In this document: positions 874 through 38,030 of the stretch, piece after piece | How the letters are laid out: each line of letters opens with the position of its first letter | Position numbering within the stretch: position 1 is the stretch's first letter | Source: a phage | Direction: 5' to 3' (one strand) | DNA length: 40,621 nt | Sequence record: PX596819.2 | Notes under the pieces: model-generated | Database searches by the model: none | Told to the model about the DNA's origin: nothing | What the model saw: the letters and a program-made list of their open reading frames with translations, nothing else | Made by a program: the position numbers and the translations under genes

Positions 874-2637
874 CTAGTGGAACGTAACGTATGACCCAAG
901 TCCAAGCTCATCGTCCGTATCGTGAGTTACCCTGACACCATTGTCCCAGAACTCAGTGTGGATGGACTCGAAGCCTTTCCGTGGGTTCTCCATCTGTTCC
1001 TCCAGCCACTCCTCAGTGACTTCACGTTCGCCTTTGTTGGCATCCTTAGCCATAGACTCAACGAAGAACTGTACACCGATAGCCAGCGCATCAAGTCGGT
1101 CATCGTGTGCCAAGGCTCCACGTTCACGAGATATACGTGTCATCTGGTAGAAGAGAGAGTAGATAGGGTTACGAACACCATCCTTATCAGAGGCTGACTG
1201 GTAGTCTTGGACGATAGCAGCAGCGTTAACGATAAGTCTGTGAGACCCCATGATAGGCTCCAGAACGTCACAGATTCGGAGTTCTTTCTGACCCTTACTC
1301 TTCACTTCAGTTACAGCAGCAGGATGGATACGGGCCGCTACAGGCTTGAATAACTCAAGGTACATACCATCACCGAAGTTACCCTCAATGACGTATTCGT
1401 TGACCTTCCACTTACGACCAATCTTAGCCAGAGCTTCCAGCGTAGAGTCTTCATAACCGCCACGCATACCACCAACTTCCATCGCGAAGATGTAGCCGTT
1501 GAGCTGGTACAATACAGCATAGCCAGTTTCATCCTTACCACGACCACTAGGGTCAATGACAAGAATCTTCTGGGTGTATGAACTGAAGGCAGAACCTACA
1601 GTCTGATACGTGTGGTATGAGTCACCCATGAGTCCAACGTTAGGAACGTCCTCACGCTTGTTCTGAGGGTTTGGCAGCCATTGGTAGACCATTGGGCTGG
1701 ACGCTGGGTCCAAGTCTGCTACGATAAGGTCACGGAGCTTCAGAGGGTACTTCTCGGCATCACTCAGGTTCGGGTTAAGCATGAACTGTAGAGCGAAGCC
1801 AGCTTTACCATAGGACAGCTCACGTTCCTTCAGGTCAATATCATCGAAGCGTACTTCATCAGTCGGACGCCAGTAGAAGGCCTCAGGGTCCTCTTCCAGC
1901 TCTGCTTGAAGCATAGGAGCCAGACGGTCGCCGTAAGACTGCCAGTCCTTCCTGTCGCGTGGATAACGAGCTGGCCAGATAGTAGTGGTGTACCCACGAC
2001 CTTCCAGCTCACGGTACAGGGTCATCTCGTTCTGAGGAGTACCCAGATAGATGATTGTACCTCCCGGCTTCAGGATAGCGTCGAACTCTTTCACAAGCTC
2101 TGATAGACGGTCTCGCGCAGCCTGAGTAGCAGAGTTGTTTGGAACCTCCACGTCATCGGCAATCAGGATGTCAGCACGACTACCAGTTAACTGACCAGTG
2201 ATACCAACTGACTTAACCGAAGGTGAGTGGTCTGGCTTGGCTGGCCCAACGTCGAAGCTAATAACCGCGTCCCTCTGTCCCTGCTTAGGCTTGAGTTCCT
2301 GAAGCTGAGGCATGAGGTCGATGATACGCTTGATGAAGATGGAGTTCGCATCGGCTCGTTCCTTTGAGGCCGACACAATCATGAACTTCAAGTCTGGGTT
2401 GTTCCATAGCTTCCAGACAACGAAACCACAGGTTAGAAACGACTTACCAATACCACGGAAAGCCTGAAGGATGAAGCGGCGATTATCCCCAGCAGCCAGC
2501 TTCTTACACATATCTATCTGGCAGCGGGTTGGAACCGGAAGGCTAAGAGCTTTCCAGAGAACGAAGATGAAGAACACGAAGTCTGCCTTCATACGGGCAG
2601 TCATTAGCGCCTGACGCGCCACTAAGTCTTTACTCAA
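874..2637 (-). CDS. gp19: Terminase large subunit (DNA maturase B, gp19)
   Basis: 587 aa, same size class as T7 gp19; last large gene of the map; ATPase and nuclease regions recognisable. Confidence 0.93.
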
Positions 2638-3799: not shown

Positions 3800-5995
3800 T
3801 TATACGATATTGTTCCCCATCGGTACCATGCTCATCGTAGGCGCTACGGAGTAGGATACAATAAGAGAATCACCGGGGGCGAGCATAACAAAGCCAGATG
3901 TCATACCTGTCACAGTTTGTGACCCACCGCGATTGAATTGGATACTCGTCACTGTGCCTCCAGTTGTAAGCACATTCTGGTACTCGCCTGTAGTATTTGT
4001 GTAGGTGAACGGGGAAGCCGTAACCGTGATAGGTTGGCGCAATTTTGTCGGGTACACATAAGCATTAGCGTCCAAGTCAAAAACATTACGGAAGCTACTA
4101 TTCGTGCCTGAATCGTAAATGCCTCCGCTGCCAGTGTCAAAATAGTTAACAGTCAGGTTTTCGATGTTCGCGGCAGAACAACCAGACTGCATTTCGATAC
4201 GCTCATGTAAGCCACCTACAATTCTCGCCCGGCGAGATGAACTGAGCAGAACGATGCTTTTGCCTGTATAACAGTTCTCCAGTACCGTATCTTGCCCACC
4301 ATCCAGCAGGTCTGCTGTCCCGTTAGCCTCAAAACCCATACCTACGAACTTATTCTGGCGTGACCCGCCTGAGGTAGTTATACCGTAGGTTCCGTTAGCC
4401 TCAGAAGTTCCGCCTATGAAGGTATTCAGGTCAGTGTCATTCAGGCGAATACCTGTACCCCCAACGCCTTCCATGATGGTATTAATAAACAGGTTTGCTG
4501 TTGACTTCAGGTTTCTGGACGGAGAAGTGCCAAGTACAAGACCGTAGTAAGGCTTGTTAGTAACTGGTTGCTCATTGATGGAATATGTTATGTTCTCGAA
4601 TACACTGGCAACGGTCCATAATAAACTCATAACCTTACCTGTTGTTGGGCTGGCCTCCCTTAAATTGATATTACGCATAGTTAGGTGTGAAGAATTCTCT
4701 ACATATAGAATGTGCTGGGTATTCGCATGACCTTCTATACCAATGTTTTCCACCACAACGTCGTAAACAGCTTGCAAACCATATTCTGAACCGTCGATCT
4801 TAAAAGCCTTCTCACCGGATGTACTTTTAAGGATAGTGTTATTTTTACCGTCCCCGAAAATATGAACACCTTTAACAGCAAAGTTTGGACCAGTCGCATA
4901 CGCATAAATACCAGCAGGGATGTATCCGCGTCGCTTATCTGTCTGGGCCACTACCGCGTTCCTGAATGCTGCCAGCTGTGCACTATTGTCAGTCACACCA
5001 TCACCGACGGCACCGAACCACAAGGCATTAATAGGGCCATCAAAGTCTCTCACCCAGCAACCGCTACCTGAAGGGTCTGATTCTCCGGTACCAGCCAAGA
5101 AAGCTGAGATGGAACTATACGGTACCGATGGGCTTATGATAGTACCACCATTGTGCGACGTTTTTGGCATGGTCGGTACGAAAATAAACTCGCCACCACC
5201 AGTAGGTTTTCCACCTGTTACTAATATATAATCAGAAGACCATGATTTTAGTTTTACCCTTGAGGTATCCCTCCCATATAAGCCATAAAATCCAGAAACG
5301 GAATCTAATTCCCCTATTAATGAATATCCAAGTTTGCTAGCAAGATGACTACGCAATGATGCATCACCAACACTAACCCACGCACCTACTCCAATCCCAC
5401 CGGAAGATTCAGGAGTTGAACCAGTAGGAACGTTCTTTGGAAGCGTACCATCCCAGCGGTAATAATCACTATCCTCCTCCCATAGCAGTACCTCGTTCCA
5501 TGTTGTAATGTTGAAGCCTTTCTCGAAGGAGCGACGGGTAATATAGCCAATTTTACCAGATGCCTTGATACTCTCAGCGATTCGTCGTGCTTCGTCCTCG
5601 CTATCCTTAGCGTTGCCAGCAGAGCTACCAGCGGCATCGGCATATTCCTTCGCTAAGTCAACCGTTTGGTCTCGACCTTCTTCTGCAATATGGATAGCCT
5701 GAAGCTCTGAATTGGTCAGGTCACTAGCTGTCAACACTGAGCCATTCCTGAAGTCTACCACTAAGTCAGTTCCAGTCTGACGGTGAATACGAACGATGTC
5801 GAAACCTGATTGGTCAACCAACATCTCAATCATCGTTGGATTAAAGAATCGGTAATCTCGGCCAACTTCCAGTACACGGTTCATGGTAGGGTTAGAGCTA
5901 TTCACCAGCGTAACAACAACAAACGTTCTGGCTAGGTAGTCGAACTCAATCCTGTAATGAGTGTTTCCTGAAGGGAATTGTGTAATAGTGGACAT
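3800..5995 (-). CDS. gp17: Tail fibre / tail spike (gp17) with T7-like N-terminal anchor and a distinct C-terminal beta-helix-like domain
   Basis: N-terminal ~150 aa (EFDYLARTFVVVTL, VDFRNGSVL, HIAEEGRD) resemble the T7 gp17 tail-attachment domain; the remainder is Gly/Asn/Thr-rich with repeated short strands, typical of tailspike beta-helices. Confidence 0.85.
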   Translation of the reverse strand: MSTITQFPSGNTHYRIEFDYLARTFVVVTLVNSSNPTMNRVLEVGRDYRFFNPTMIEMLVDQSGFDIVRIHRQTGTDLVVDFRNGSVLTASDLTNSELQAIHIAEEGRDQTVDLAKEYADAAGSSAGNAKDSEDEARRIAESIKASGKIGYITRRSFEKGFNITTWNEVLLWEEDSDYYRWDGTLPKNVPTGSTPESSGGIGVGAWVSVGDASLRSHLASKLGYSLIGELDSVSGFYGLYGRDTSRVKLKSWSSDYILVTGGKPTGGGEFIFVPTMPKTSHNGGTIISPSVPYSSISAFLAGTGESDPSGSGCWVRDFDGPINALWFGAVGDGVTDNSAQLAAFRNAVVAQTDKRRGYIPAGIYAYATGPNFAVKGVHIFGDGKNNTILKSTSGEKAFKIDGSEYGLQAVYDVVVENIGIEGHANTQHILYVENSSHLTMRNINLREASPTTGKVMSLLWTVASVFENITYSINEQPVTNKPYYGLVLGTSPSRNLKSTANLFINTIMEGVGGTGIRLNDTDLNTFIGGTSEANGTYGITTSGGSRQNKFVGMGFEANGTADLLDGGQDTVLENCYTGKSIVLLSSSRRARIVGGLHERIEMQSGCSAANIENLTVNYFDTGSGGIYDSGTNSSFRNVFDLDANAYVYPTKLRQPITVTASPFTYTNTTGEYQNVLTTGGTVTSIQFNRGGSQTVTGMTSGFVMLAPGDSLIVSYSVAPTMSMVPMGNNIV

Positions 5996-13867: not shown

Positions 13868-16225
13868 TTAGACGGAACGAGCTTTCTTAGCGTATGACGC
13901 CTCCCAGCCACAACCAACGATGGACACTGGGGTAGGATAATCTGACTCTAAGGTTAGACTCGTGGTTAATGCGTTACCATTCATAGCGAAGCGATACTGA
14001 CCATCCCCAATGTTGGTAGTCCCGATGGTTTGCTGACCAAGGGTGTACCCGTTGAAGGTATTCACGAACTCCCGCTCACCGTTTCTGACAATGAGTCTCA
14101 GAGCGCCAGTGTCTTTGTAGTTGATCCAAGCCCGACGAAGCTGTAGACGACCAGTGTCTTCAGACTGAGTGCCACTATCATCTTCAATCTTAATCAGGAA
14201 CCGTGAGAACTTGTAGGACATCAGATAGGACCGTCCGATGAACACTGTGCGTCCTGACCAATCGCCGTTGAGGATAACAACAGTAGAGATACTGGTCAAG
14301 TCCCCAAGGTCCACATAAGCACCCTGACTGTCAATTAGATAGTACCGACCGGGAGACGGAGCGTTGCCGCCATAAGCAGCACCAATGTCAACCGTAGTCT
14401 TATAGGTGTCAGCATTATATGAGCCAATTGGAATTACCATAGACACCTTGGAGTCAACGTGTAGTCTATATGGCTCTGACGGTAAGTCAGTTGCCTCCTT
14501 GATGAACTTAAGGTGCTCAATGTCTACCCCTCCTTGGTGCTGACGAACGATGAACATGGTAGAGCCAATAGAAGCAGACGCCAGAATCTTATCATCTTTA
14601 GGGAACTCCCAGTGTGACCAAGAGGCTTGAAGCTGTACGCCGTCCTTAAACAAGAACTTGTAGATGTAGATACGGTTGTATGCACCTGTAGAGTTGACGC
14701 AGATGTAGTTCTCAGTCCCTGTACCTTGAATATCAAACACCCCGTTAGGGATGTAGGACAGTACGTGACCAGTTGTATCATCGGCATCCTTCACATCAGA
14801 CACATCAGCTACAGCGAAGTATCGCTTAATGCTGGTGAATGACCCACGAGGAGCTGAGAAGAAGACTGAGCGTCCTACAGCGAACGGTCTGGCATTATCA
14901 CCTAAGGCAAACTCTGAGCCTACATCAAGCTGGATAGACTTCGCAGTTAGGACCCCAGAGCTTGTCATCACGAACTGCACCTCGTCTGACCAAAGTAGTA
15001 GTTGCTCGCTAAACGGGACTGCATACTTAAGGATTGAGATTCTAGGGTGACTTACGGCTACGTCAATAGGGTCGTCATCACTAAGTGTCGCCACACTCTT
15101 AGGGAAGAACGCAAAGTAGCTGGCTGAACGACTCATGATTACGTTCTCTCCTGACAGGAACCCCAGCCTGTTCCTGTAGAAGAACACATCGTTAATCGTA
15201 GCATCCACGAAGCTAGGCATGGGGTTTGTGTCATCATTACCAGCACCACGCTTAGACCAGTCCAGAGTCTTGAACTCAAAGGAGCCGTCAGATTGTCTCA
15301 CCAGAGCGTGAGGCATTGTGGTGTTATCGAACCCAGTGACCACTCCCGGCTCTACTGTCTCCTTCCACGTCTTAGTGTTGGAGTCATACATCACGTAATA
15401 TTCATCTGCACTACTGTTGGTCTCACCTTGGATCTTAATGATATACCCATTAGGAGCTGCAAGAGGTAGTTTAGAGATTGTCTGCACAGTGTCTAGGACT
15501 GGGCTTATTAGCTGATTAGCGTAGCCATCCTCCGTCTCCACTGAGTTAATGTTGGTCCCTGAAGGGGCTGTGATTAGCAGGAAGCCAGACCCAAGGTCGA
15601 ACGTGAAGGTAGGATAGGCAGCAACAAGAAGGTCTCTCAGAGCTGCACCGATGGCCTGAGCATCCACCTTAGGTGGGTCATTCTCGGCATCATTACCTGC
15701 TGGCAACTTATGTGAAACCTTAACGCCTCCATTGATTCCAACCTTAAGGGTGCGACCATACTGTCCACCACGCAGGTTGATTAAAGCACGAGCTTTACGA
15801 TTATAACCAGAGTGTGACTTCTCGCTTCCACCTTTAACGACAACCTTACGGTTAACAACGAACGTATAGTCTGCCACGGTAACGACACGGATGTCATCTC
15901 GTGGGTTGGAGGACTTAACGTAGTCTACCGCACCGGAAACTGAGTATTGATTACCACTCAAGTCAACTACCTGAATGTTGGACCCGTTGAACACGATGTA
16001 ATACTGCTCCTGCTCATCACGGTTAATCAGGTGGAACTTAGGGTTGCTCCCAACGTCGATGTCAAGACGTCGCTTGAAGACTGTAGGCGGGCGCTTCTGG
16101 AGGCCATCACTCTCTGAGGACCAGCAGTTAACCTGTGACTCGCCTTGGTCTGAGAACCTCAGTATATCAGGCTGCTGGCTAATGCCCCCTTTAAGATTTT
16201 TTATACTCTGTGTGATAAGCGGCAT
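13868..16225 (-). CDS. gp12: Tail tubular protein B (gp12)
   Basis: 785 aa vs 794 in T7; synteny. Confidence 0.9.
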   Translation of the reverse strand: MPLITQSIKNLKGGISQQPDILRFSDQGESQVNCWSSESDGLQKRPPTVFKRRLDIDVGSNPKFHLINRDEQEQYYIVFNGSNIQVVDLSGNQYSVSGAVDYVKSSNPRDDIRVVTVADYTFVVNRKVVVKGGSEKSHSGYNRKARALINLRGGQYGRTLKVGINGGVKVSHKLPAGNDAENDPPKVDAQAIGAALRDLLVAAYPTFTFDLGSGFLLITAPSGTNINSVETEDGYANQLISPVLDTVQTISKLPLAAPNGYIIKIQGETNSSADEYYVMYDSNTKTWKETVEPGVVTGFDNTTMPHALVRQSDGSFEFKTLDWSKRGAGNDDTNPMPSFVDATINDVFFYRNRLGFLSGENVIMSRSASYFAFFPKSVATLSDDDPIDVAVSHPRISILKYAVPFSEQLLLWSDEVQFVMTSSGVLTAKSIQLDVGSEFALGDNARPFAVGRSVFFSAPRGSFTSIKRYFAVADVSDVKDADDTTGHVLSYIPNGVFDIQGTGTENYICVNSTGAYNRIYIYKFLFKDGVQLQASWSHWEFPKDDKILASASIGSTMFIVRQHQGGVDIEHLKFIKEATDLPSEPYRLHVDSKVSMVIPIGSYNADTYKTTVDIGAAYGGNAPSPGRYYLIDSQGAYVDLGDLTSISTVVILNGDWSGRTVFIGRSYLMSYKFSRFLIKIEDDSGTQSEDTGRLQLRRAWINYKDTGALRLIVRNGEREFVNTFNGYTLGQQTIGTTNIGDGQYRFAMNGNALTTSLTLESDYPTPVSIVGCGWEASYAKKARSV

Positions 16226-23692: not shown

Positions 23693-23973
23693 TGCTTGAC
23701 CTCGAATCGCAGGTTGGACACGCCGAACTGGTGATCATCAAAGGCGTACATCAGCTCCTTCTTGACGTACTTCTTGACGGCAATCTCAATGGCAGACTCA
23801 GGGCCTGACTCGATTGCTGCTTTGACCATGGCAAACTGAAGTCCATCCAGCTTCTCACCCTCAGCGTAGGCTTTAGTAACCTCAGCCAATTGGCGACACA
23901 TGGTCTCTTCTTCTTTTGAGTTGACAACCATCTTCAGGTCGAAACTTACACGAATACGTTTAGTAATAGCCAT
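23689..23973 (-). CDS. gp5.5: gp5.5-like protein
   Basis: Track ORF starts at GTG (23991); I place the start at ATG 23973 (MAITKRIRVSFD), which overlaps the DNA polymerase stop as TAATG. Confidence 0.6.
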   Translation of the reverse strand: MAITKRIRVSFDLKMVVNSKEEETMCRQLAEVTKAYAEGEKLDGLQFAMVKAAIESGPESAIEIAVKKYVKKELMYAFDDHQFGVSNLRFEVKQ

Positions 23974-23975
23974 TA

Positions 23976-24128
23976 GTGACACTCCTTCCACGTTGGTCCA
24001 ATCTTACCTTCGGTATCAAGGACACATTTAAAGTTATAGAACTCACCCACCTTACGCATAGCAAGTTGAGCAATTTCGACTGTACGTTCTGCTATTTCTT
24101 GAGTACGACAAGCAATCTGTAACTCATC
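23976..24128 (-). CDS. gp5: DNA polymerase, 3' exon (C-terminal 51 aa: DELQIACRTQEIAERTVEIAQLAMRKVGEFYNFKCVLDTEGKIGPTWKECH)
   Basis: No start codon or RBS; translation continues the polymerase exactly where the upstream ORF stops, and resembles the T7 DNAP C-terminus (DEIQVGCRTEE...LDTEGKMGPNWAICH). Confidence 0.8.
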
Positions 24129-24728
24129 CTTTCTGTATTCTCCCATTACTGGAAGTGTCGGACTATATCATCAGTCTTTGAGGTGACTGTCTGGCGCTTC
24201 GGGTTACGTGGGAATCTCACCCACGGCCCTACTCCTTTCGGATAGTCTCTACGCCTTCCACTCTCTCTAATCCACCCACAGGCGGCTGAGAACGACACAT
24301 TGAATACTTCGGCTAACTTCGTTCCAGTACACCCAGTCTCTACCCAGTAGTCTCGTGCTTCTAGCTTCCTAGCAGCGTATCGCTCTTGGTTTGTCTTGAC
24401 TAAGTGTGAGTCCCGGTCTAATACTTGTAGATGTTCGACGTTGCAGCAAGCTCTATTATGACACTTGTGGTCTACTTCGAAACCTTCAGGTATTGGACCA
24501 TTAGCTTTAGTCCATAAAGTTCTATGATACATCTCTAGGACACCGTTAGTCCTCTTTCGGAAGTATCCATCCTGATTCAATTTATGTGACGTAGGGATTA
24601 TGCAGCCAGTCTCAGTGGCCTCAAGAATTAACTTCTTGCCTCTCATACATCCTCCCTATGGCTTGGCTCGGTATTGTCCCATTAGGAGTTCACCGAGTTC
24701 ACCAGATTTAATGTGCACCATGATGTTA
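24129..24728 (-). mobile_element. Intervening sequence (about 600 nt) in the DNA polymerase gene: putative group I intron carrying an HNH homing endonuclease ORF
   Basis: Polymerase reading frame is interrupted after ..AYMAWVH by an in-frame TAA and resumes at DELQ.. 600 nt downstream; the upstream exon ends in T and the insert ends in G (AAAG|GAT), as at group I intron boundaries; the insert encodes an HNH protein. Confidence 0.7.
24146..24646 (-). CDS. HNH homing endonuclease encoded inside the polymerase intervening sequence
   Basis: 166 aa with HNH motif EVDHKCHNRACCNVEHLQV and the upstream GYFRKR..YHRTLW..GPIP pattern typical of phage HNH endonucleases. Confidence 0.8.
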   Translation of the reverse strand: MRGKKLILEATETGCIIPTSHKLNQDGYFRKRTNGVLEMYHRTLWTKANGPIPEGFEVDHKCHNRACCNVEHLQVLDRDSHLVKTNQERYAARKLEARDYWVETGCTGTKLAEVFNVSFSAACGWIRESGRRRDYPKGVGPWVRFPRNPKRQTVTSKTDDIVRHFQ

Positions 24729-26744
24729 ATGCACCCATGCCATGTACGCGAAGTCTCCTTCCCAGCCGTGTACATACCCGGCCTCTTCGAGCATACGTTC
24801 AGTCTCAACAATCCAGTGCTTACAGACTACCGCACCATCACCTTGAAGTAAGGCGTTCAGTGCTGAGTGTGGAGACCGGATGTGAATGCGGCGACCGTCA
24901 AGTCCACGCAGCCAACGGCGTTTCCACTTAACGATGTTCTCTCCGTCAACCCACTTAGAGTCTGAGATTAACGTACTACTCACAGCTTCCCTGAGGTCCT
25001 TGATGGCTGGTGTACCCTCAATGAATTTCTTCATGAGAGCTGAACCTTCCTTCTTACCACCTCCTACTATCAGTCCAATCTTAGCGGCCCCTGCGCCATA
25101 CAGGAACGCATAGATGAACGTCTTAGCGTTGTTACGGAAAGCATCATGGTCGTGGTTAGACTTATCGCGTGGGACGTTAGGTGCTAACCCAGCGTTGACT
25201 GCGTTGGCCCAGTGGATGTCACCTTCGACCACAGTCTTCGCATAGTCACCACCATCAAACGGAGCCGCTCTGTTCCCCAGACAACGAAGCTCAAGACCTG
25301 AGGCATCCACACCTACTTGAATCCAAGGGTCTGGATTACCGTCCTTCTTGTTCCATGCTGCACCGAAAGCACCACGGCAAGTCTCACCATATGGAGCACC
25401 GTTAGCAGGGACCTGAGCCATGTTTGGTGAACTATGAGTAGCACGTCCGGTTACTGCCCCGCATGGGTTGATTGAACCATGCATACGTCCGTCTGGACCT
25501 ACAAGTTTCAACCATGCGTTCTTACCTTCAGCCGCCTGACCAATGCGCTTCTGGACTACCAGATACTCACGGACCAGCTCTACGCAAGCCTGAGCCTCTG
25601 CGTCTGGTAACTTAACGTGTTCTAACGTCTCGTCATCGACTACAGGTTTCCCGGTGTCAGTGAAGTCCACAGGCTCCCAACCACGCTCCATCAGAACTTT
25701 CGCTAAGTGGTCTCCGCTTCCCGGATTAAACTCAACGTAAGTGATAGGTGTGAACGGTGCTCCCTCCATCGTGTCTCGTGAGTCGAACTCACAAGGTTCC
25801 AGACCTAAGCGTTGAGCTTTGTTCTTCGGCTTCTTGAATACTGACCCGACCTTAGGATACACGACTCGCGGATACTTCGGAAGGTCCTTGCCTGTCCGTG
25901 GGTGCTTGAAGAACTCCTTGCCACCCTTCGGTGCATACCAGCTACCGAAAGTCGAACGCAGCTTGTCCAGCAGCTCTGCACGTTTGACGGTGAGTTCACG
26001 ATATAAGCCTTCGACCATCTCGGTGTTCATCGGGTAGCCGTTACGTTCCATCTTCGCACAGGTCCACGCAGCATCATGTTCCAGACGCAACGCATAAATC
26101 TGGTCGAAGGCGAACTGTTCAGACTGGAAGTAATACTTGTCAGTCAGGAACTTCTTGAACAACGCCAGTGTGACCACAACGTCTTGAACGTTATAGTCCA
26201 GCATCTCCTGAGACGGTAACAACCATTCGTCCCCAGCCTTATATTCGATACCTTCAGCCTTGCACTTGGCAACGTAATCGTGTTTGTATTCACCTTTCAT
26301 CTCACCAAGACGATAGCCCCAAGCCTCAAGAGACTGACGTCCCATCATCTTAGGTGGCAGACGACCAGCTTTCACCGCGCCCATGTCTGAGAACTTAATG
26401 TTTGGATACATCAAGCGCCCCAGCACCAAGGTATCAATCATCTTGTGTTTCGGGAAGTTAAAACGTTTCCCAAAGTACAGACGTTTCAGCTTGTCAATAG
26501 CAGGGACGTCATAGTTTATACCATTATGGAAGACAAGCATACCATCAGGTGATGCGGCAATCTCTTCCACTTTATGCACATACTCTTTGAAGCCACCGAC
26601 GATACCGACCATCGGAGCTACCCCATACTTAATGGTCTCATTCGACTCGGCGTTAATCAGGACCCCGCAGTGGAACTGGGAGACTGTATCAAGGAGACCG
26701 TTTGTCTCGATGTCAGAACACCAGATACTCTTAAGGTCAAACAT
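24729..26744 (-). CDS. gp5: DNA polymerase (family A, T7 gp5-like), 5' exon
   Basis: Strong resemblance to T7 DNAP throughout (DIETNGLL, FHCGV, MDYNVQDVVVT, KNKAQR, GRATHSSPNMAQVP, DASGLELRC, FAYMAWVH). Start placed at the internal ATG with GGAGGA 6 nt upstream (MFDLKSIW); the track ORF begins earlier at 26780. Confidence 0.93.
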
Positions 26745-26983: not shown

Positions 26984-28687
<1,704 letters not shown>

Positions 28688-30288: not shown

Positions 30289-30737
30289 TTAACTCCTTTC
30301 TTCTTGGGAATGAGTATACCTGAAGGCAGATGTACAGTCGCCTCTCGGAGCCACTCAACCGGGATGAACTTATCGGCATACTTAAAGCCGTTCTTTTCGC
30401 ACCATGCGCCATACGTGGTTGGAGACCCTTTGTATAACTTGGAGCGGGAACTTGAGAACACGAACCGAATGTCTAACTCAGGGTGCTGTTCTTTAATCAA
30501 TAAGTGCTTCTTACGGTCTTCCACTGCGAAGATTCCCTTGGTCTCCACAATGATGCCATTTGGTAGCACAAAGTCTGGACAATAGGTATGAAGGGATTGA
30601 GGGATTGTGTACGCTATTTTATACATCTCGTACTCAGCCTTAACCCCGTTCTTCTCCAGCCACTCTTGGTTTTTTGCTTCCAGTCCAGACCGATAGATTC
30701 CTACCGAGTGTCCCCTACTCATGCTACGTGTCGCCAT
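30285..30737 (-). CDS. gp3: Endonuclease I (Holliday junction resolvase, gp3)
   Basis: 150 aa; HTYCPDFVLPNGIIVETKG, DRKKHLLIKEQHPELDIRFVFSSSRSKLYKGSPTTYG resemble T7 gp3. Confidence 0.93.
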   Translation of the reverse strand: MATRSMSRGHSVGIYRSGLEAKNQEWLEKNGVKAEYEMYKIAYTIPQSLHTYCPDFVLPNGIIVETKGIFAVEDRKKHLLIKEQHPELDIRFVFSSSRSKLYKGSPTTYGAWCEKNGFKYADKFIPVEWLREATVHLPSGILIPKKKGVK

Positions 30738-31168
30738 GTTTCTCTCCTTAGTATCTTACCTATTGTTGGCTGAGACACTCCGTAGATTGTAGCGAGTTGT
30801 CGCTGAGTAAGGCTCGAAGACCTAATTTCCTTGACTTTAGTGTCAGTAAGTTTGGACATACCGCACTTCTCTCCCGGAACATGAGGAGGGTTTACACCGC
30901 GCCCCTTGTTACGCATGTCCTGAAGGTTATCCAATTGGGTCCCTACAGTAAGATGCTCAGGGTTACAACACAGCGGAGTATCACAGGTGTGTAACAGAAC
31001 GCCATTAGGTTCTTCACCTGTAATCAGCTCGTAGGCTACGCGATGTGCAAGCATGGTTTTTCCATTGTGCCTAATCTGACCGTAGCCTTTGTTGTTAACG
31101 CAGCCAGTGAAAAGCCAGCAGCTACCTGAAACCACAAGTCGCTGCTTAAGGCTTTCTACTGTAGCCAT
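30719..31168 (-). CDS. HNH endonuclease with C-terminal HTH (free-standing)
   Basis: CWLFTG..NKGYGQI..AHRVAYELITGEEPNGVLLHTCDTPLCCNPEHL; C-terminal LTQRQLATIYGVSQPTIGKI helix-turn-helix. Confidence 0.8.
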   Translation of the reverse strand: MATVESLKQRLVVSGSCWLFTGCVNNKGYGQIRHNGKTMLAHRVAYELITGEEPNGVLLHTCDTPLCCNPEHLTVGTQLDNLQDMRNKGRGVNPPHVPGEKCGMSKLTDTKVKEIRSSSLTQRQLATIYGVSQPTIGKILRRETWRHVA

Positions 31169-35131: not shown

Positions 35132-35362
35132 TCATTTGGTTGCCTCTTCCCGTAGGGCCTTCTCGTGTGACCACTGTATTACCTGAATCAGCTCCTTCTG
35201 GCTGATACATTTGGCCTTAGCCGTTCCAGTCGGTACCATAGTCACCTTGACCAGACCTTTACCCGCCACTGTGGTTACGGTAACTACCTTGTTGCCACCA
35301 GATACGTTTGATACACGGTGTGCGAATTGCATGTTGTCTCTCCTGTTGTTAAGCGAATGCAA
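35132..35362 (-). CDS. Hypothetical small protein between gene 1 and the phi1.1 promoter (gene 1.05-like position)
   Basis: 76 aa ORF with TTG start overlapping the RNAP stop by 14 nt; an internal ATG (MQFAHRV..) is also possible. Weak. Confidence 0.3.
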   Translation of the reverse strand: MHSLNNRRDNMQFAHRVSNVSGGNKVVTVTTVAGKGLVKVTMVPTGTAKAKCISQKELIQVIQWSHEKALREEATK

Positions 35363-38030
35363 AGTCTGAAGACAAGATGTCTTCGATATTCAGTTTACCT
35401 TTCTTCGGAAGCTCAGGCAACTTGTCGCGCTGGCTCTCGTGAAGCTGGTACTCGAACTGCTCGTAGAAGTCGAGCAGCACATCGTTGTCGCGGTAGGTCT
35501 CGACCATCGTCTCACGGACACCACGGAACAGATACTCAGCATCAGCAGGAATGGTCCCGAAGCTATCGTGAATAACTGCGAATGACATCACACCATACTT
35601 GCGGTGAGTGTGGACTACAGTCTTGCGGAGGTGGCTGCCATCTTGTGAGTGAACGAAGTTCGGGCTAATGCCTGACTCCTGCTTGTGCTTGTCCAGCTCT
35701 TTCTTCGTGCCTTTATTGACTGTAGGTTGAAGGTTAAATGACCCTAAGAACATCAGGTTCAGACGCGTGGTATCCTTCTTGCGGTATTCCTGCCAGACCG
35801 GGAAACCATCAGGTGTTACCCAGTGTACCGGAAGGCAAGGCTTCAGGATTTCACCAGTTTTCTTGTCCTTCACCTCAGCAGCCAGCAGCTTGGCAGCACC
35901 TTGAAGCCACTTCATCGCGTCTACCGCAGCAACCACGGTCACACTCACAGCCTCCCAGATCATCTTAGCCATGAAGCGAGACGCTTGTCTTGGTTCAGTG
36001 AACATAGCGCCAGACCCTGAGTCAATCGCGGGCATCACGATGTCCTCGTACACTTGGTCTGCGAAGCCATACTCTTTCGACCCGTAGGCCAGAGTCATGA
36101 CCGAACGCTTAGTGACCTTGCGTGACATGCCGTAGGTCAGCCACTGACGGGCCAGCTCTCGTGTCCCCAGCTTGAGACGTTCGGTAATCTCACCAGTTTT
36201 CTTGTCCTCGTGAGTCACCATCTCGTTGTCCGTACCGTTAACCAGCAGGACTTTAAGCTCCTCCTCAATGCGGTCAGACACAATGCGGTAGATGTCTTGG
36301 ACCTTACCGGATGGAGTTAGGTTTACTGCATGTCCACCGATGTGGTCACGAAGCATCGCGCTGAAGTGCTGAATACCAGAGCAGGACCCGTCGAACGCTA
36401 TTGGCAGCGAACATGAGTAAGACAGTCCGTGGTGCATTACGCCAGCATACTCGAAGCAGAACGCTAGGAAGCAGAACGGAGAGTCTAACTTGCCCCACCA
36501 CTCAATGCTATCCATCGGTGCTTTGGCAGCAGCCATGATGTTGTCGTGGTTGTCTTCCACCCACTTGATGCGCTCCTCGAAGGTGACTTTATCGACACCC
36601 GCACAGTTTGCACCGTGGACCTTCAGCCATTTGAAACCATCAGCACCAATAGGCTTACCGACTGCCAGAGTCAGTAGACCCTTCTGCATGTCGTTACCCT
36701 GAGGGTTGAACATCGGCACAGCGTAGACGCGACCGCGCCAGTCCATGTTGTACGGGAACCAGATGGCCTTGAACTGAGAGAACTTGTTCGCTTGGTTGAC
36801 GATAAAGCTCAATGATAATCTGCGTGACTGTCTGGCCTTCTCGCGGCGATAGATGCCAGCAGCAGCCTTCTTCCACGCCTTGAGGTCCTCTTCAGTCTCT
36901 CCCACATAGTCTTCAGGCTTCAGTGGTTCCATCTGAGGGATGTCGTCAATAGGCGTGTTGTTCAGCTTCTCGACCATGTTCACTACGTCCAGCACCTTCT
37001 TGTTCACTTTCCAAGGTGTATTCTGGATGATGTTCACAGCGTCATAGACTTCAGGCATGTACACGTCTTCGTAACGTGCTACCGCAGACTTAGACCCTAA
37101 GCGAATCAATGGTAACGGTCTGCGACCTTTGGCCCAGTAACCACCGCCTACGACACCCGTCCACGGCTTAGGTGGAACGACGCACGGTTGGTAGACTGGC
37201 GCGATACCTGCAAGGCTGAAGCCACGTTGCGCCATCTTCTTGACCCAGAAGTCTGACAGGTGGACCATCTCAACATCAGCCGCTGCATTGCCAGCACCAT
37301 AACGCTTAAGCTCGACCAGTTGTGTAGACTGTATGACAATCTCAAGCATCTTGATGCCGACGTGTACCGCTTCTGTAGGACTCCAAGTACCCCACGCATC
37401 TTCCAGTTGGCCTTGCTCCAGCATGGAGGTCTCAACCGCTTGCATGTAGGCTTTCTTGTAGGATACCCCTGCTCGCTTGTTCAGGTTCTCAGCAATCGCC
37501 TTCTTGAAGTGCTCCTGCTCCTTATCACGGATGCGGCCGAAGCGGATTTCATCTTCCAGTGTGCGACCTATCGCGGATGCCATAGGAGTTATCGGAATGC
37601 CTTCAGGCTTGACCAGCTTGCTGAGGATGACTTTCAGTATGATGATCGCAGCAGACTCCGCAGAGATTAGCAGAGAGCGGTCTTTTACAGCCTTCTCGTC
37701 AGTGCTCAGCATGGTAAACGCTACGCTTGGACGCGAGGTCGATGACTTACCGTCCGGGCCTTCATGCCACTCACGGAAAGCCTTAGCGATGGTCGGAACC
37801 AGCGTTTGCATCAAAGGTTTGGCGACCTGATTGTCTGCCAGTTCCCCTCGCTCGGTCTGGCGCTCAAGGTTCTTGATGAAACGTCGCTCGCCTTCAGTGT
37901 ATGCCTCATGCTCAAGCTGAAGCTGTTTGACTGCAAGGTCTTGCCCGTAGTGGTTGGCCAGCAGGTTAAACGGCTCAATGGCGTTCGACACATCAGAGAA
38001 GTCGTGTTTGTCAATAGAGATGACGCTCAT
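35349..38030 (-). CDS. gp1: Single-subunit DNA-directed RNA polymerase (T7 gp1-like)
   Basis: 893 aa vs 883 in T7; ends ..DFAFA like T7 RNAP; AAGGA 8 nt upstream of the ATG. Confidence 0.97.
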   Translation of the reverse strand: MSVISIDKHDFSDVSNAIEPFNLLANHYGQDLAVKQLQLEHEAYTEGERRFIKNLERQTERGELADNQVAKPLMQTLVPTIAKAFREWHEGPDGKSSTSRPSVAFTMLSTDEKAVKDRSLLISAESAAIIILKVILSKLVKPEGIPITPMASAIGRTLEDEIRFGRIRDKEQEHFKKAIAENLNKRAGVSYKKAYMQAVETSMLEQGQLEDAWGTWSPTEAVHVGIKMLEIVIQSTQLVELKRYGAGNAAADVEMVHLSDFWVKKMAQRGFSLAGIAPVYQPCVVPPKPWTGVVGGGYWAKGRRPLPLIRLGSKSAVARYEDVYMPEVYDAVNIIQNTPWKVNKKVLDVVNMVEKLNNTPIDDIPQMEPLKPEDYVGETEEDLKAWKKAAAGIYRREKARQSRRLSLSFIVNQANKFSQFKAIWFPYNMDWRGRVYAVPMFNPQGNDMQKGLLTLAVGKPIGADGFKWLKVHGANCAGVDKVTFEERIKWVEDNHDNIMAAAKAPMDSIEWWGKLDSPFCFLAFCFEYAGVMHHGLSYSCSLPIAFDGSCSGIQHFSAMLRDHIGGHAVNLTPSGKVQDIYRIVSDRIEEELKVLLVNGTDNEMVTHEDKKTGEITERLKLGTRELARQWLTYGMSRKVTKRSVMTLAYGSKEYGFADQVYEDIVMPAIDSGSGAMFTEPRQASRFMAKMIWEAVSVTVVAAVDAMKWLQGAAKLLAAEVKDKKTGEILKPCLPVHWVTPDGFPVWQEYRKKDTTRLNLMFLGSFNLQPTVNKGTKKELDKHKQESGISPNFVHSQDGSHLRKTVVHTHRKYGVMSFAVIHDSFGTIPADAEYLFRGVRETMVETYRDNDVLLDFYEQFEYQLHESQRDKLPELPKKGKLNIEDILSSDFAFA

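What the first reader, a model, noticed from the sequence alone, without database searches (positions are those of the whole stretch)
23973..26744. DNA polymerase gene split at the catalytic WVH|DE motif by a 600 nt insertion carrying an HNH endonuclease
The polymerase ORF stops at TAA immediately after ..FAYMAWVH (24726-24731). About 600 nt downstream, with no start codon or RBS, a frame encodes DELQIACRTQEIAERTVEIAQLAMRKVGEFYNFKCVLDTEGKIGPTWKECH, the missing polymerase C-terminus. The insertion (about 24129-24728) encodes a 166-aa HNH protein. The upstream exon ends in T and the insertion ends in G, as expected for group I intron boundaries. Group I introns with homing endonucleases have been reported in DNA polymerase genes of some T7-like phages, and this looks like one, inserted at one of the most conserved sites of the enzyme.
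Basis: partly seen in the sequence, partly recalled or inferred. Interest (0 to 1): 0.8.

Follow-up and report, generated by a model that had tools for sequence, protein, structure and literature searches.

The report
Known self-splicing intron in phage polymerase
The DNA polymerase gene of this K1F-like (T7-type) phage is interrupted by a 600-base self-splicing group I intron carrying a homing-endonuclease gene, the same element already annotated in phage K1F and shown to splice in phages PhiI and W31, so it is a real but ordinary, known feature.

Summary
On the minus strand the polymerase ORF ends ..FAYMAWVH + TAA (His codon 24731-24729, TAA 24728-24726). After 600 nt (24728-24129) the frame resumes with DELQ...KECH (24128-23973). 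Joining the two parts gives a 723-aa protein that aligns with T7 gp5 without a gap.

The insertion is a group I intron of the IA2 type:
- U.G pair at the 5' splice site in P1, a terminal G, and a P10 guide.
- A P3-P9 core with P7.1/P7.2.
- Rfam RF00028 E=4e-7, but below the curated cut-off.
- Across 10 homologous introns, 97% of cells are paired and 23 of 61 pairs show compensatory changes, including pairs with exon codons.

The intron is 98.3% identical to the K1F and CLB_P1 introns, whose GenBank records already join the two polymerase exons. It sits at the same H|DE site as the experimentally spliced PhiI/W31 introns.

- An in-frame ATG exists (24146-24144), overlapping the HNH stop. It has no Shine-Dalgarno sequence and is not conserved in relatives.
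- The 166-aa HNH ORF is a private variant. A 2-nt insertion (about 24268-24267) replaces the canonical 131-aa ending and runs the ORF through the ribozyme's 3' core.

Verdict: already known, low interest.

The parts
24729..26744 (-). DNA polymerase exon 1 (672 codons, MFDLKS...FAYMAWVH). Its start ATG at 26744 is preceded by GGAGG.
   Evidence: aligned to T7 gp5 residues 3-653
24129..24728 (-). Group I intron, 600 nt, IA2-type architecture (no P2; P7.1/P7.2 present), with the ORF in the P6a loop.
   Evidence: Rfam RF00028, full-model match, 35.5 bits, E 4.3e-7. 98.3% identical to the K1F and CLB_P1 introns. Covariation.
24726..24728 (-). TAA forming the first three intron bases, in frame with exon 1. 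It stops ribosomes at the 5' splice site.
   Evidence: All 11 introns compared have an in-frame stop within the first 10 intron codons.
24713..24734 (-). P1. Exon GUGCAU (24734-24729) pairs with the internal guide GUGCAC (24718-24713), with a U.G wobble at the splice site (U 24729, G 24718). The loop holds the P10 guide: UCAU at 24723-24720, or CAUC at 24725-24722 in the other register.
   Evidence: P1 is 93-100% paired, and exon GUG->AUG covaries with guide C->U in 3 sequences
24659..24706 (-). 5' half of the ribozyme core: P3 (24706-24700), P4 (24697-24691), P5 hairpin (24687-24677), P4' (24673-24667), P6 (24666-24665), P6a (24661-24659).
   Evidence: P3 has 5 of 7 pairs compensatory; P4/P5/P6 each have compensatory pairs; centroid fold recovers P4-P5
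24651..24656 (-). Shine-Dalgarno sequence GGGAGG for the intron ORF.
24146..24646 (-). HNH homing-endonuclease ORF, 166 aa in this window. Residues 1-127 match the canonical 131-aa K1F gp5.3. Residues 128-166 are a frameshifted tail read from the ribozyme's 3' core.
   Evidence: Pfam HNH_3, E 2.1e-15, residues 40-81; frameshift shown; the exact 166-aa sequence is absent from a 15-billion-protein collection, whereas the 131-aa form is seen on many contigs
24267..24268 (-). 2-nt (AG) insertion in a (GA)n run relative to K1F and CLB_P1. It shifts the HNH frame and lies just 5' of the P6a 3' strand, in the ORF loop.
24249..24251 (-). UAG that ends the HNH ORF in K1F, 13a, CHRF_10037, Vp_R1 and ECBP2, immediately before P7. 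It is out of frame in this window.
24140..24260 (-). 3' half of the ribozyme core: P6a' (24260-24258), P6' (24255-24254), P7 (24247-24242), P7.1 CC-GAAA-GG (24241-24234), GUA linker, P7.2 (24229-24201), P3' (24196-24190), P8 (24189-24172), P7' (24166-24161), P9 with GUAA loop (24155-24140).
   Evidence: P8 has 4 of 5 and P9 4 of 6 pairs compensatory; P7 is invariant; centroid fold recovers P7.1, P7.2, P8 and P9
24144..24146 (-). In-frame ATG six codons before exon 2, overlapping the HNH stop (TAATG). It lies at the P9 loop/3'-strand junction (the A is the last base of the GUAA loop; U and G pair in the stem), and there is no Shine-Dalgarno sequence.
   Evidence: Not conserved: ATA in 13a, and an ATG followed by an in-frame TAG in CHRF_10037.
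24129..24129 (-). Terminal intron G (omega-G) at the 3' splice site.
   Evidence: invariant in all 10 aligned introns
23973..24128 (-). DNA polymerase exon 2 (DELQIACRT...GPTWKECH plus TAA stop). Its first bases pair with the P10 guide.
   Evidence: The exon-2 Asp codon GAU->GAC covaries with guide A->G (pair 19-310).

Best explanation
[quoted passage not shown] The proposed mechanism has three steps.

1. Splicing. The gene is transcribed as one pre-mRNA. Ribosomes translating exon 1 stop at the UAA that forms the first intron codon. The intron RNA folds into the P1-P9 ribozyme. An external guanosine attacks after the U of ..GUGCAU, which is held in P1 by a U.G wobble. The freed exon-1 3'-OH then attacks after the terminal G (24129), with exon 2 aligned by P10.
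2. Product. The exons are ligated as CAU|GAU. This restores the motif C sequence WVH-DE and a full-length 723-aa polymerase.
3. Mobility. The ORF looped out of P6a encodes an HNH homing endonuclease, a homologue of K1F gp5.3 and of free-standing gp5.3 of phiYeO3-12. In mixed infections it would cut intronless polymerase genes near this site, and repair would then copy the intron in.

Shown here: the boundaries, the conserved and covarying RNA structure, the collinear ligated ORF, the HNH domain, and near-identity to annotated introns. Inferred, not tested here: actual splicing and endonuclease activity of this copy.
For: - Rfam group I model: the whole model (1-253) matches 24738..24139 at E 4.3e-7. 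Alignable homologues pass Rfam's curated cut-off: Aeromonas phage MQM1 at 61 bits and the ORF-less Salmonella phage Arash intron at 58.9 bits, against a cut-off of 50.
- Covariation: on 10 homologous introns with the ORF removed, 96.9% of cells are paired, against 37-44% when partners are slid. 23 of 61 pairs show changes on both sides. The covariation score is 0.353 against 0.04-0.08, and no shuffle out of 500 reaches it.
- Exon-guide covariation: P1 and P10 covary with exon codons. Val GUG->Met AUG is matched by the guide, and Asp GAU->GAC is matched by the guide.
- Independent fold: an energy-based fold of the ORF-less intron recovers P1, P4-P5, P7.1, P7.2, P8 and P9.
- Ligated protein: it is collinear with T7 gp5 at E 1.5e-270 with no gap at the junction.
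- Intronless alleles: the ligated junction is contiguous in 127 intronless relatives.
- Existing annotation: the intron is 98.3% identical to the K1F and CLB_P1 introns, whose records annotate the polymerase as a two-piece join.
- Literature: PhiI and W31 carry a self-splicing IA2 intron with an HNH ORF in P6a at Pol I site 881, which is H|D of motif C (PMC3428280 citing Bonocora & Shub 2004). K1F is described as having a putative group I intron in its polymerase (PMC4925675).
- Endonuclease: HNH_3 domain at E 2.1e-15, and 47.8% identity to free-standing gp5.3 of phiYeO3-12.
Against: - The window's own Rfam score (35.5 bits) is below the family's gathering score (50), and the whole-window scan at gathering level lists nothing. 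The likely reason is the roughly 400-nt ORF insertion in P6a and the P7.1/P7.2 insertion, but this was not tested directly.
- P7 and P7.1 are invariant in the set, so they give no covariation evidence either way.
- The structure was drawn partly from these same sequences, which favours it in the slid control.
- This copy has a 2-nt insertion that makes the HNH ORF run through P7-P9. Ribosomes on that stretch could impair folding, and the altered C-terminus could affect the endonuclease.
- No RNA data exist for this phage.
Confidence: 0.93

Rival explanations
1. The polymerase is made as two polypeptides from unspliced RNA: a 672-aa N-terminal protein ending at the TAA, and a 57-aa C-terminal fragment started at ATG 24146. 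That start would be translationally coupled to the end of the extended HNH ORF through the TAATG overlap. The two pieces would then assemble non-covalently.
For: An in-frame ATG exists and overlaps the stop of the 166-aa ORF. Seven of the 11 related introns have some in-frame ATG within 6 codons of exon 2. Several GenBank records annotate the C-terminal piece as its own CDS.
Against: - There is no Shine-Dalgarno sequence before the ATG.
- The ATG sits in the P9 hairpin (GUAA loop plus stem), and its bases vary as compensatory stem changes.
- 13a has ATA at that position. CHRF_10037 and RCIP0053 have an in-frame TAG directly before exon 2, and Vp_R1 has only one open codon.
- The stop-start overlap with HNH exists only in this window's frameshifted allele; in K1F the HNH ORF stops 105 nt upstream.
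- The split would cut between His and the catalytic Asp-Glu of motif C.
- It would leave the strongly conserved, covarying ribozyme unexplained.
Confidence: 0.03
2. The intron in this particular genome is crippled. The 2-nt insertion is real, translation of the extended HNH ORF through P7-P9 or the altered endonuclease tail impairs splicing or homing, and the element is on its way to decay. Alternatively, the 2 bases are a sequencing or assembly error and the true allele is the canonical 598-nt intron.
For: The insertion is private to this window. K1F, CLB_P1, Ro45lw and the other close relatives have 598 nt. The 166-aa protein is not in a 15-billion-protein collection, while the 131-aa form is on dozens of contigs. 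In 9 of 10 relatives the ORF stops at or before P7. Ribosome occupancy of core sequences is reported to cause splicing defects in the I-TevI intron (PMC3073962).
Against: The inserted bases lie in the ORF loop, outside every helix of the model, and all paired core positions are intact. The HNH catalytic region (residues 40-81) is untouched. The polymerase is essential, so a non-splicing allele would not give a viable phage. ORFs that overlap core elements are known in other working introns (Table 1 of PMC3073962).
Confidence: 0.03
3. The gap is bridged by some other route: an intein, a split-intein 'fractured gene', or ribosomal bypassing or frameshifting.
For: Split genes with a homing endonuclease gene between the halves exist (PMC2677866, listed).
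Against: The insertion starts with an in-frame TAA and has many stops in the polymerase frame, so it cannot be an intein. The ligated exons match T7 gp5 residue for residue with nothing left over for split-intein halves. 600 nt is far beyond known ribosomal bypasses (own knowledge: T4 gene 60 bypasses 50 nt).
Confidence: 0.005

Closest known systems
[quoted passage not shown]
   Same: Same genus, same insertion site and same architecture. The intron is 98.3-98.5% identical in sequence over its full length. The GenBank records join the two polymerase exons across it. It is described as a putative group I intron encoding a homing endonuclease (PMC4925675).
   Different: There are 10-12 differences from K1F and CLB_P1. 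One is a 2-nt insertion at about 24268-24267, which lengthens the intron to 600 nt and changes the HNH ORF from 131 to 166 aa. The flanking exons are only about 96-97% identical.
Self-splicing IA2 introns of T7-like phages PhiI and W31, encoding the HNH endonuclease I-TslI (Bonocora & Shub 2004, J Bacteriol 186:8153; 2009, Curr Biol 19:223)
   Same: [quoted passage not shown] Teseptimavirus 13a carries an 80% identical intron.
   Different: The PhiI and W31 sequences (AY769989/90) and the original papers could not be retrieved here, so identity to them was not measured. Splicing and homing were shown for PhiI, not for this phage. The statement that I-TslI and T3 gp5.3 cut the same site comes from my own knowledge of the 2009 paper.
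Free-standing homing endonuclease gene 5.3 of T3 / phiYeO3-12, placed just after an intronless gene 5
   Same: The HNH_3 protein is homologous: 47.8% identity over residues 6-89. It lies next to the same polymerase gene.
   Different: It is not inside an intron, the polymerase gene is uninterrupted, and the protein is shorter (110 aa).
Other phage family A DNA polymerase introns: SPO1, SP82 and Bastille (I-HmuI, I-HmuII, I-BasI), Pf-WMP3 (I-PfoP3I) and phiL7
   Same: They are group I introns with HNH endonucleases in conserved polymerase motifs. Pf-WMP3 is also IA2 with its ORF in P6a.
   Different: They use different insertion sites (Pol I positions 674 and 676, against 881) and were not found as DNA homologues of this intron.

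Membership tests
Group I intron (Rfam RF00028) | Match to the family covariance model at the curated gathering score | tested here: inconclusive
   The window scores 35.5 bits against a gathering score of 50, at E 4.3e-7, with the full model 1-253 covered. There is no hit at gathering level. Alignable homologues MQM1 (61 bits) and Arash (58.9 bits) pass.
Group I intron (Rfam RF00028) | P1 helix between the exon-1 end and an internal guide, with a U.G wobble at the 5' splice site | tested here: met
   GUGCAU pairs with GUGCAC, and U24729 forms the wobble with G24718. The U.G is invariant in 10 of 10 introns, and the outer pair covaries G-C/A-U with the exon codon.
Group I intron (Rfam RF00028) | Terminal G at the 3' splice site, and P10 pairing of exon 2 with the guide | tested here: met
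   G24129 is invariant. P10 is 93.8% paired, and the exon GAU/GAC change is compensated in the guide. In the window itself the homologous register gives 4 bp (UCAU/AUGA), and a shifted register (CAUC/GAUG) also gives 4 bp.
Group I intron (Rfam RF00028) | Conserved core P3-P8 pseudoknot with P4-P6 and P3-P9 domains, supported by covariation | tested here: met
   P3 has 5 of 7 compensatory pairs, P4 2 of 7, P5 2 of 3, P6 1 of 2, P8 4 of 5 and P9 4 of 6. Overall 96.9% of cells are paired. P7 is invariant and therefore uninformative.
Group I intron (Rfam RF00028) | Guanosine-dependent self-splicing giving ligated exons | not testable with these tools
   No RNA data are available. Splicing was shown only for the PhiI and W31 homologues, according to the literature.
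Subgroup IA2 | Extra helices P7.1 and P7.2 between P7 and P3', linked by G-U-A | tested here: met
   P7.1 is CC-GAAA-GG (24241-24234), followed by GUA, then P7.2 (24229-24201) with compensatory pairs. The defining criterion is as stated in PMC3428280.
HNH homing endonuclease (Pfam HNH_3; I-TslI / gp5.3 group) | HNH catalytic motif | tested here: met
   PF13392 at E 2.1e-15 and 56.5 bits (cut-off 24.8), residues 40-81.
HNH homing endonuclease (Pfam HNH_3; I-TslI / gp5.3 group) | Cleaves the intronless allele near the insertion site and promotes homing | not testable with these tools
   Inferred from homology to K1F gp5.3 and phiYeO3-12 gp5.3 and from the patchy intron+/intron- distribution among close relatives. 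There is no sequence match to any solved structure.
Intein / split-intein fractured gene | In-frame insertion without stops, or intein halves flanking the break | tested here: not met
   TAA is the first codon of the insertion. The ligated exons are collinear with T7 gp5 with no extra residues.

The most novel reading that the evidence does not exclude
The 2-nt insertion is real and creates a new expression arrangement. The HNH ORF now runs through the whole 3' catalytic core (P7 to P9) and ends in a TAATG overlap with an in-frame ATG six codons before exon 2. Endonuclease translation would then both antagonise splicing and, by termination-reinitiation, produce a free 57-aa polymerase C-terminal peptide carrying the catalytic Asp-Glu. 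This would be a live example of an intron ORF 'creeping' into the ribozyme core with consequences for the host gene.
Probability: 0.04. Interest if true: 0.45.

Novelty: already known. Interest (0 to 1): 0.15.

Why it matters
For annotation, gene 5 of this phage should be written as a two-exon join (26744..24729, 24128..23973). It should not be recorded as a truncated polymerase plus an orphan 57-aa ORF, an error still present in several public records of related phages. Biologically it adds one more copy of a well-known mobile intron. The intron persists at the most conserved site of a family A polymerase because its homing endonuclease targets that site. The only new points are minor. One is a private frameshift that extends the endonuclease ORF through the ribozyme core. 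The other is evidence that the same intron family occupies the same H|DE site in several unrelated phage lineages.

Tried and rejected
- Primary papers: Bonocora & Shub 2004 and 2009 and Scholl & Merril 2005 are not held by DOI or PMC id. I relied on papers that cite them and on my own knowledge, marked as such.
- PhiI intron record: AY769989 is not in the collections, so identity to PhiI and W31 was not measured.
- Rfam at gathering threshold: a scan of the whole window found nothing. The intron appears only with the E-value threshold.
- HNH protein against PDB sequences: no match up to E = 1.
- An alternative P6 pairing (GCC/GGC) was considered and dropped. Covariation supports CC/GG instead: position 72-88 is C-G, U-A or G-C.
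- The intein, fractured-gene and ribosome-bypass readings were rejected on the in-frame TAA and on exact collinearity with T7 gp5.
- An independent start for exon 2 was considered because of ATG 24146. It was rejected as a conserved feature.
- A review of bacterial group I introns (PMC3984707) had nothing specific on T7-like phages.
Full report
**What is in the sequence**

All genes in this window run on the minus strand. The window is a complete T7-type genome, with RNA polymerase at 38030..35349, primase/helicase at 28684..26984 and terminase at 2637..874.

- The DNA polymerase ORF starts at ATG 26744, behind a GGAGG, and runs to ..TTC GCG TAC ATG GCA TGG GTG CAT. TAA follows at 24728-24726.
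- Exactly 600 nt further on, after a G at 24129, the sequence GAT GAG TTA CAG... encodes DELQIACRTQEIAERTVEIAQLAMRKVGEFYNFKCVLDTEGKIGPTWKECH up to a TAA at 23975-23973.
- Both exons are multiples of three (2016 and 156 nt).
- Joining them gives a 723-aa protein that aligns from residue 9 to the last residue with T7 DNA polymerase (6n7w_H, E 1.5e-270). FAYMAWVHDELQIACRT lies over FAYMAWVHDEIQVGCRT with no gap at the junction.
- A 174-nt query made of the last 78 nt of exon 1 fused to the first 96 nt of exon 2 is found as one uninterrupted piece in 127 phage genomes, at about 90% identity in the best. These include Citrobacter phage SH5, EcoDS1 and Enterobacter phage IME278. The boundaries proposed are thus exactly those of a presence/absence polymorphism.

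**What the insertion is**

The Rfam group I intron model (RF00028) matches 24738..24139 on the minus strand over its whole length, at 35.5 bits and E 4.3e-7. This is below Rfam's curated cut-off of 50 bits, and a scan of the window at that cut-off lists nothing. I therefore tested the structure independently.

A sensitive DNA search with the intron alone found 63 phage records:

- K1F, CLB_P1, Ro45lw and other Kayfunavirus members at 95-98.5% identity.
- Teseptimavirus 13a and many T7-group phages at about 80%.
- More distant copies in Aeromonas phages PT2 and MQM1, Vibrio phage Vp_R1 (Grimontviridae), Kuravirus/Suseptimavirus phages (1-6af, ECBP2), Edwardsiella phage DT115P1, Klebsiella phage RCIP0053 and Salmonella phage Arash.

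Two of these homologues pass Rfam's cut-off: MQM1 at 61 bits and the ORF-less Arash intron at 58.9 bits.

I removed the ORF from ten non-identical introns, aligned them (A1) and wrote down a group I structure for the window. The helices are:

| Helix | Window sequence / coordinates |
|---|---|
| P1 | exon GUGCAU 24734-24729 with guide GUGCAC 24718-24713; U.G at the splice site |
| P2 | absent |
| P3 | UCUGGUG / CGCCAGA |
| P4-P5 | hairpin, 24697-24667 |
| P6 | CC / GG |
| P6a | CCA / UGG; the ORF lies in its loop |
| P7 | GACUAU / AUAGUC |
| P7.1 | CC-GAAA-GG |
| linker | G-U-A |
| P7.2 | 24229-24201 |
| P8 | CAGUC / GACUG |
| P9 | CUUCCA-GUAA-UGGGAG |
| P10 | guide in the P1 loop with the first bases of exon 2 |

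Results on the alignment:

| Measure | This structure | Controls |
|---|---|---|
| Cells forming standard pairs | 96.9% | 37-44% when partners are slid by 1-3 columns |
| Pairs with compensatory double changes | 23 of 61 | 2-8 (slid) |
| Covariation score | 0.353 | 0.04-0.08 (slid) |
| Shuffles reaching the observed values | — | 0 of 500 |

Two pairs are especially telling, because they tie the ribozyme to precisely these splice sites:

- The outermost P1 pair changes from G-C to A-U where the exon codon changes from Val GUG to Met AUG.
- A P10 pair changes from A-U to G-C where the exon-2 Asp codon changes from GAU to GAC.

An energy-only fold of the window's ORF-less intron independently recovers P1, P4-P5, P7.1, P7.2, P8 and P9 in its centroid (z = -2.5).

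Two caveats apply. P7 and P7.1 never vary, so they are neither supported nor contradicted. The structure was also drawn with these sequences in view. The architecture (no P2, P7.1/P7.2 joined by G-U-A, ORF in P6a) matches the description of subgroup IA2 used for the PhiI, W31 and Pf-WMP3 introns (PMC3428280).

**The intron ORF**

ORF 24646..24146 has a strong Shine-Dalgarno sequence (GGGAGG, 24656-24651) and an HNH_3 domain at residues 40-81 (E 2.1e-15). It is 97.7% identical (residues 1-128) to the best-matching close-relative copy, the one in Citrobacter phage NS1. It is 47.8% identical to free-standing gp5.3 of phiYeO3-12, which lies just after an uninterrupted gene 5.

The 166-aa length is peculiar to this window:

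- K1F and CLB_P1 have 598-nt introns and a 131-aa ORF ending ..GWIREWKA.
- The window has two extra bases in a (GA)n run at about 24268-24267. From codon 128 it reads ..GWIRESGRRRDYPKGVGPWVRFPRNPKRQTVTSKTDDIVRHFQ, that is, through P7, P7.1, P7.2, P3', P8, P7' and half of P9.
- In nine of ten relatives the ORF stops at or just before P7, usually with a UAG overlapping the first bases of the P7 strand.
- The exact 166-aa sequence is absent from a 15-billion-protein collection. The 131-aa K1F form is in a 65-member cluster seen on dozens of contigs.
- The inserted bases lie outside all helices, so the ribozyme itself is intact.

Whether the two bases are a real mutation or a sequencing error cannot be decided here.

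**The rival: two polypeptides**

That is not correct. An ATG at 24146-24144 is in frame six codons upstream and overlaps the stop of the 166-aa ORF (TAATG), giving the 57-aa ORF listed.

Several points argue against it being a functional start:

- It has no Shine-Dalgarno sequence.
- It lies in the P9 hairpin (the A is the last base of the GUAA loop; U and G pair in the stem), and its bases change as part of compensatory stem changes. For example, 13a has CUCCUA-GUAA-UAGGAG and hence ATA.
- In CHRF_10037 and RCIP0053 an in-frame TAG lies directly before exon 2. In Vp_R1 only one codon is open.
- Seven of eleven introns do have some ATG within six codons of exon 2, but at different positions and never behind a ribosome-binding site.
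- The stop-start overlap with the HNH ORF exists only in this frameshifted allele.

I rate independent translation of the C-terminal fragment as a real but very unlikely alternative.

An intein or split-intein arrangement is excluded by the in-frame TAA and by the exact collinearity with T7 gp5.

**How it most likely works**

The pre-mRNA is translated up to the UAA that forms the first intron codon. Such a stop just inside the intron is typical of bacterial group I introns and keeps ribosomes out of the ribozyme (PMC3073962). All eleven introns compared here have one within ten codons.

The intron then folds, guanosine attacks after U24729, and the exons are ligated after G24129, restoring ..WVHDE... 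The HNH protein, expressed from its own Shine-Dalgarno sequence in the P6a loop, would cut intronless polymerase genes of co-infecting relatives and drive homing.

This fits two observations: the patchy distribution (42 records with most of the intron against 127 with the empty site), and the presence of the same intron at the same H|DE site in distant phage lineages.

Splicing and cleavage by this copy are inferred from homology, not shown.

**Comparison with what is known**

This is the intron already annotated in K1F (DQ111067) and CLB_P1 (KC109329), where the polymerase CDS is a two-piece join and the ORF is called a homing endonuclease. It is mentioned as a putative group I intron in K1F gp5 (PMC4925675).

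The experimentally studied members are the PhiI and W31 introns. They are IA2, with an HNH ORF (I-TslI) in P6a, inserted at Pol I position 881, and they splice in vivo and in vitro (as summarised in PMC3428280).

From my own knowledge of Bonocora & Shub 2009, I-TslI and the free-standing T3 gp5.3 cut intronless gene 5 at the same position. I could not read that paper here.

**Verdict**

The feature is already known. The only new elements are a private 2-nt frameshift in the endonuclease gene and some by-products noted below. Interest is low.

Noticed in passing
window 24267-24268 (and ORF tail 24265-24146): A 2-nt AG insertion in a (GA)n run, relative to K1F and CLB_P1, extends the intron HNH ORF from 131 to 166 aa by reading through the ribozyme 3' core. 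The exact 166-aa protein is not in a 15-billion-protein collection. It could be a real mutation or a sequencing error.
   Followed up: yes
L014 (Citrobacter phage NS1, MN715150.2) 814-1479: NS1 has an intronless polymerase gene (record 15158-15331). It also carries a 95% identical copy of this intron, plus about 50 nt of exon 1, in its early region. That copy has no exon 2 after the terminal G and has a changed P7' (GATATACTCC). It is either an ectopic insertion or an assembly artefact.
   Followed up: partly
window 30719-31168 (-): A second, free-standing HNH_3 endonuclease gene (149 aa, HNH_3 E 1.2e-9, C-terminal HTH-like region) lies between the gene 2.5-like and endonuclease I genes. It is only distantly related to the intron HNH (37% identity over 63 aa).
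   Followed up: partly
L007, L008, L009, L010, L011, L012 (MQM1, 1-6af, Vp_R1, ECBP2, RCIP0053, DT115P1): Homologous introns with homologous HNH ORFs sit at the same His|Asp-Glu site of family A polymerases in phages of quite different groups: Autographiviridae, Grimontviridae, Gordonclarkvirinae and unclassified. Many of these records annotate the polymerase as separate fragments rather than a join.
   Followed up: partly
L013 (Salmonella phage Arash, OQ632216.1) 849-1120: An ORF-less 272-nt group I intron (RF00028, 58.9 bits) has a 3' core 74% identical to the window's. It lies between two polymerase fragments annotated 'DNA polymerase nu' and 'DNA polymerase theta', at a different site from H|DE.
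   Followed up: no
window 3800-5995 (-): The tail fibre/spike has a T7 tail-fibre N-terminus followed by a pectate-lyase-like domain, not an endosialidase as described for K1F. The host capsule specificity probably differs from K1F.
   Followed up: no
window 24144-24146 and equivalent positions in L002, L005, L007, L008, L010, L012: Seven of eleven related introns have an in-frame ATG within six codons of exon 2. In three it uses the terminal intron G as its third base. Four have none or an in-frame stop. It is probably incidental, but it explains why annotators often call the C-terminal exon as a separate gene.
   Followed up: yes
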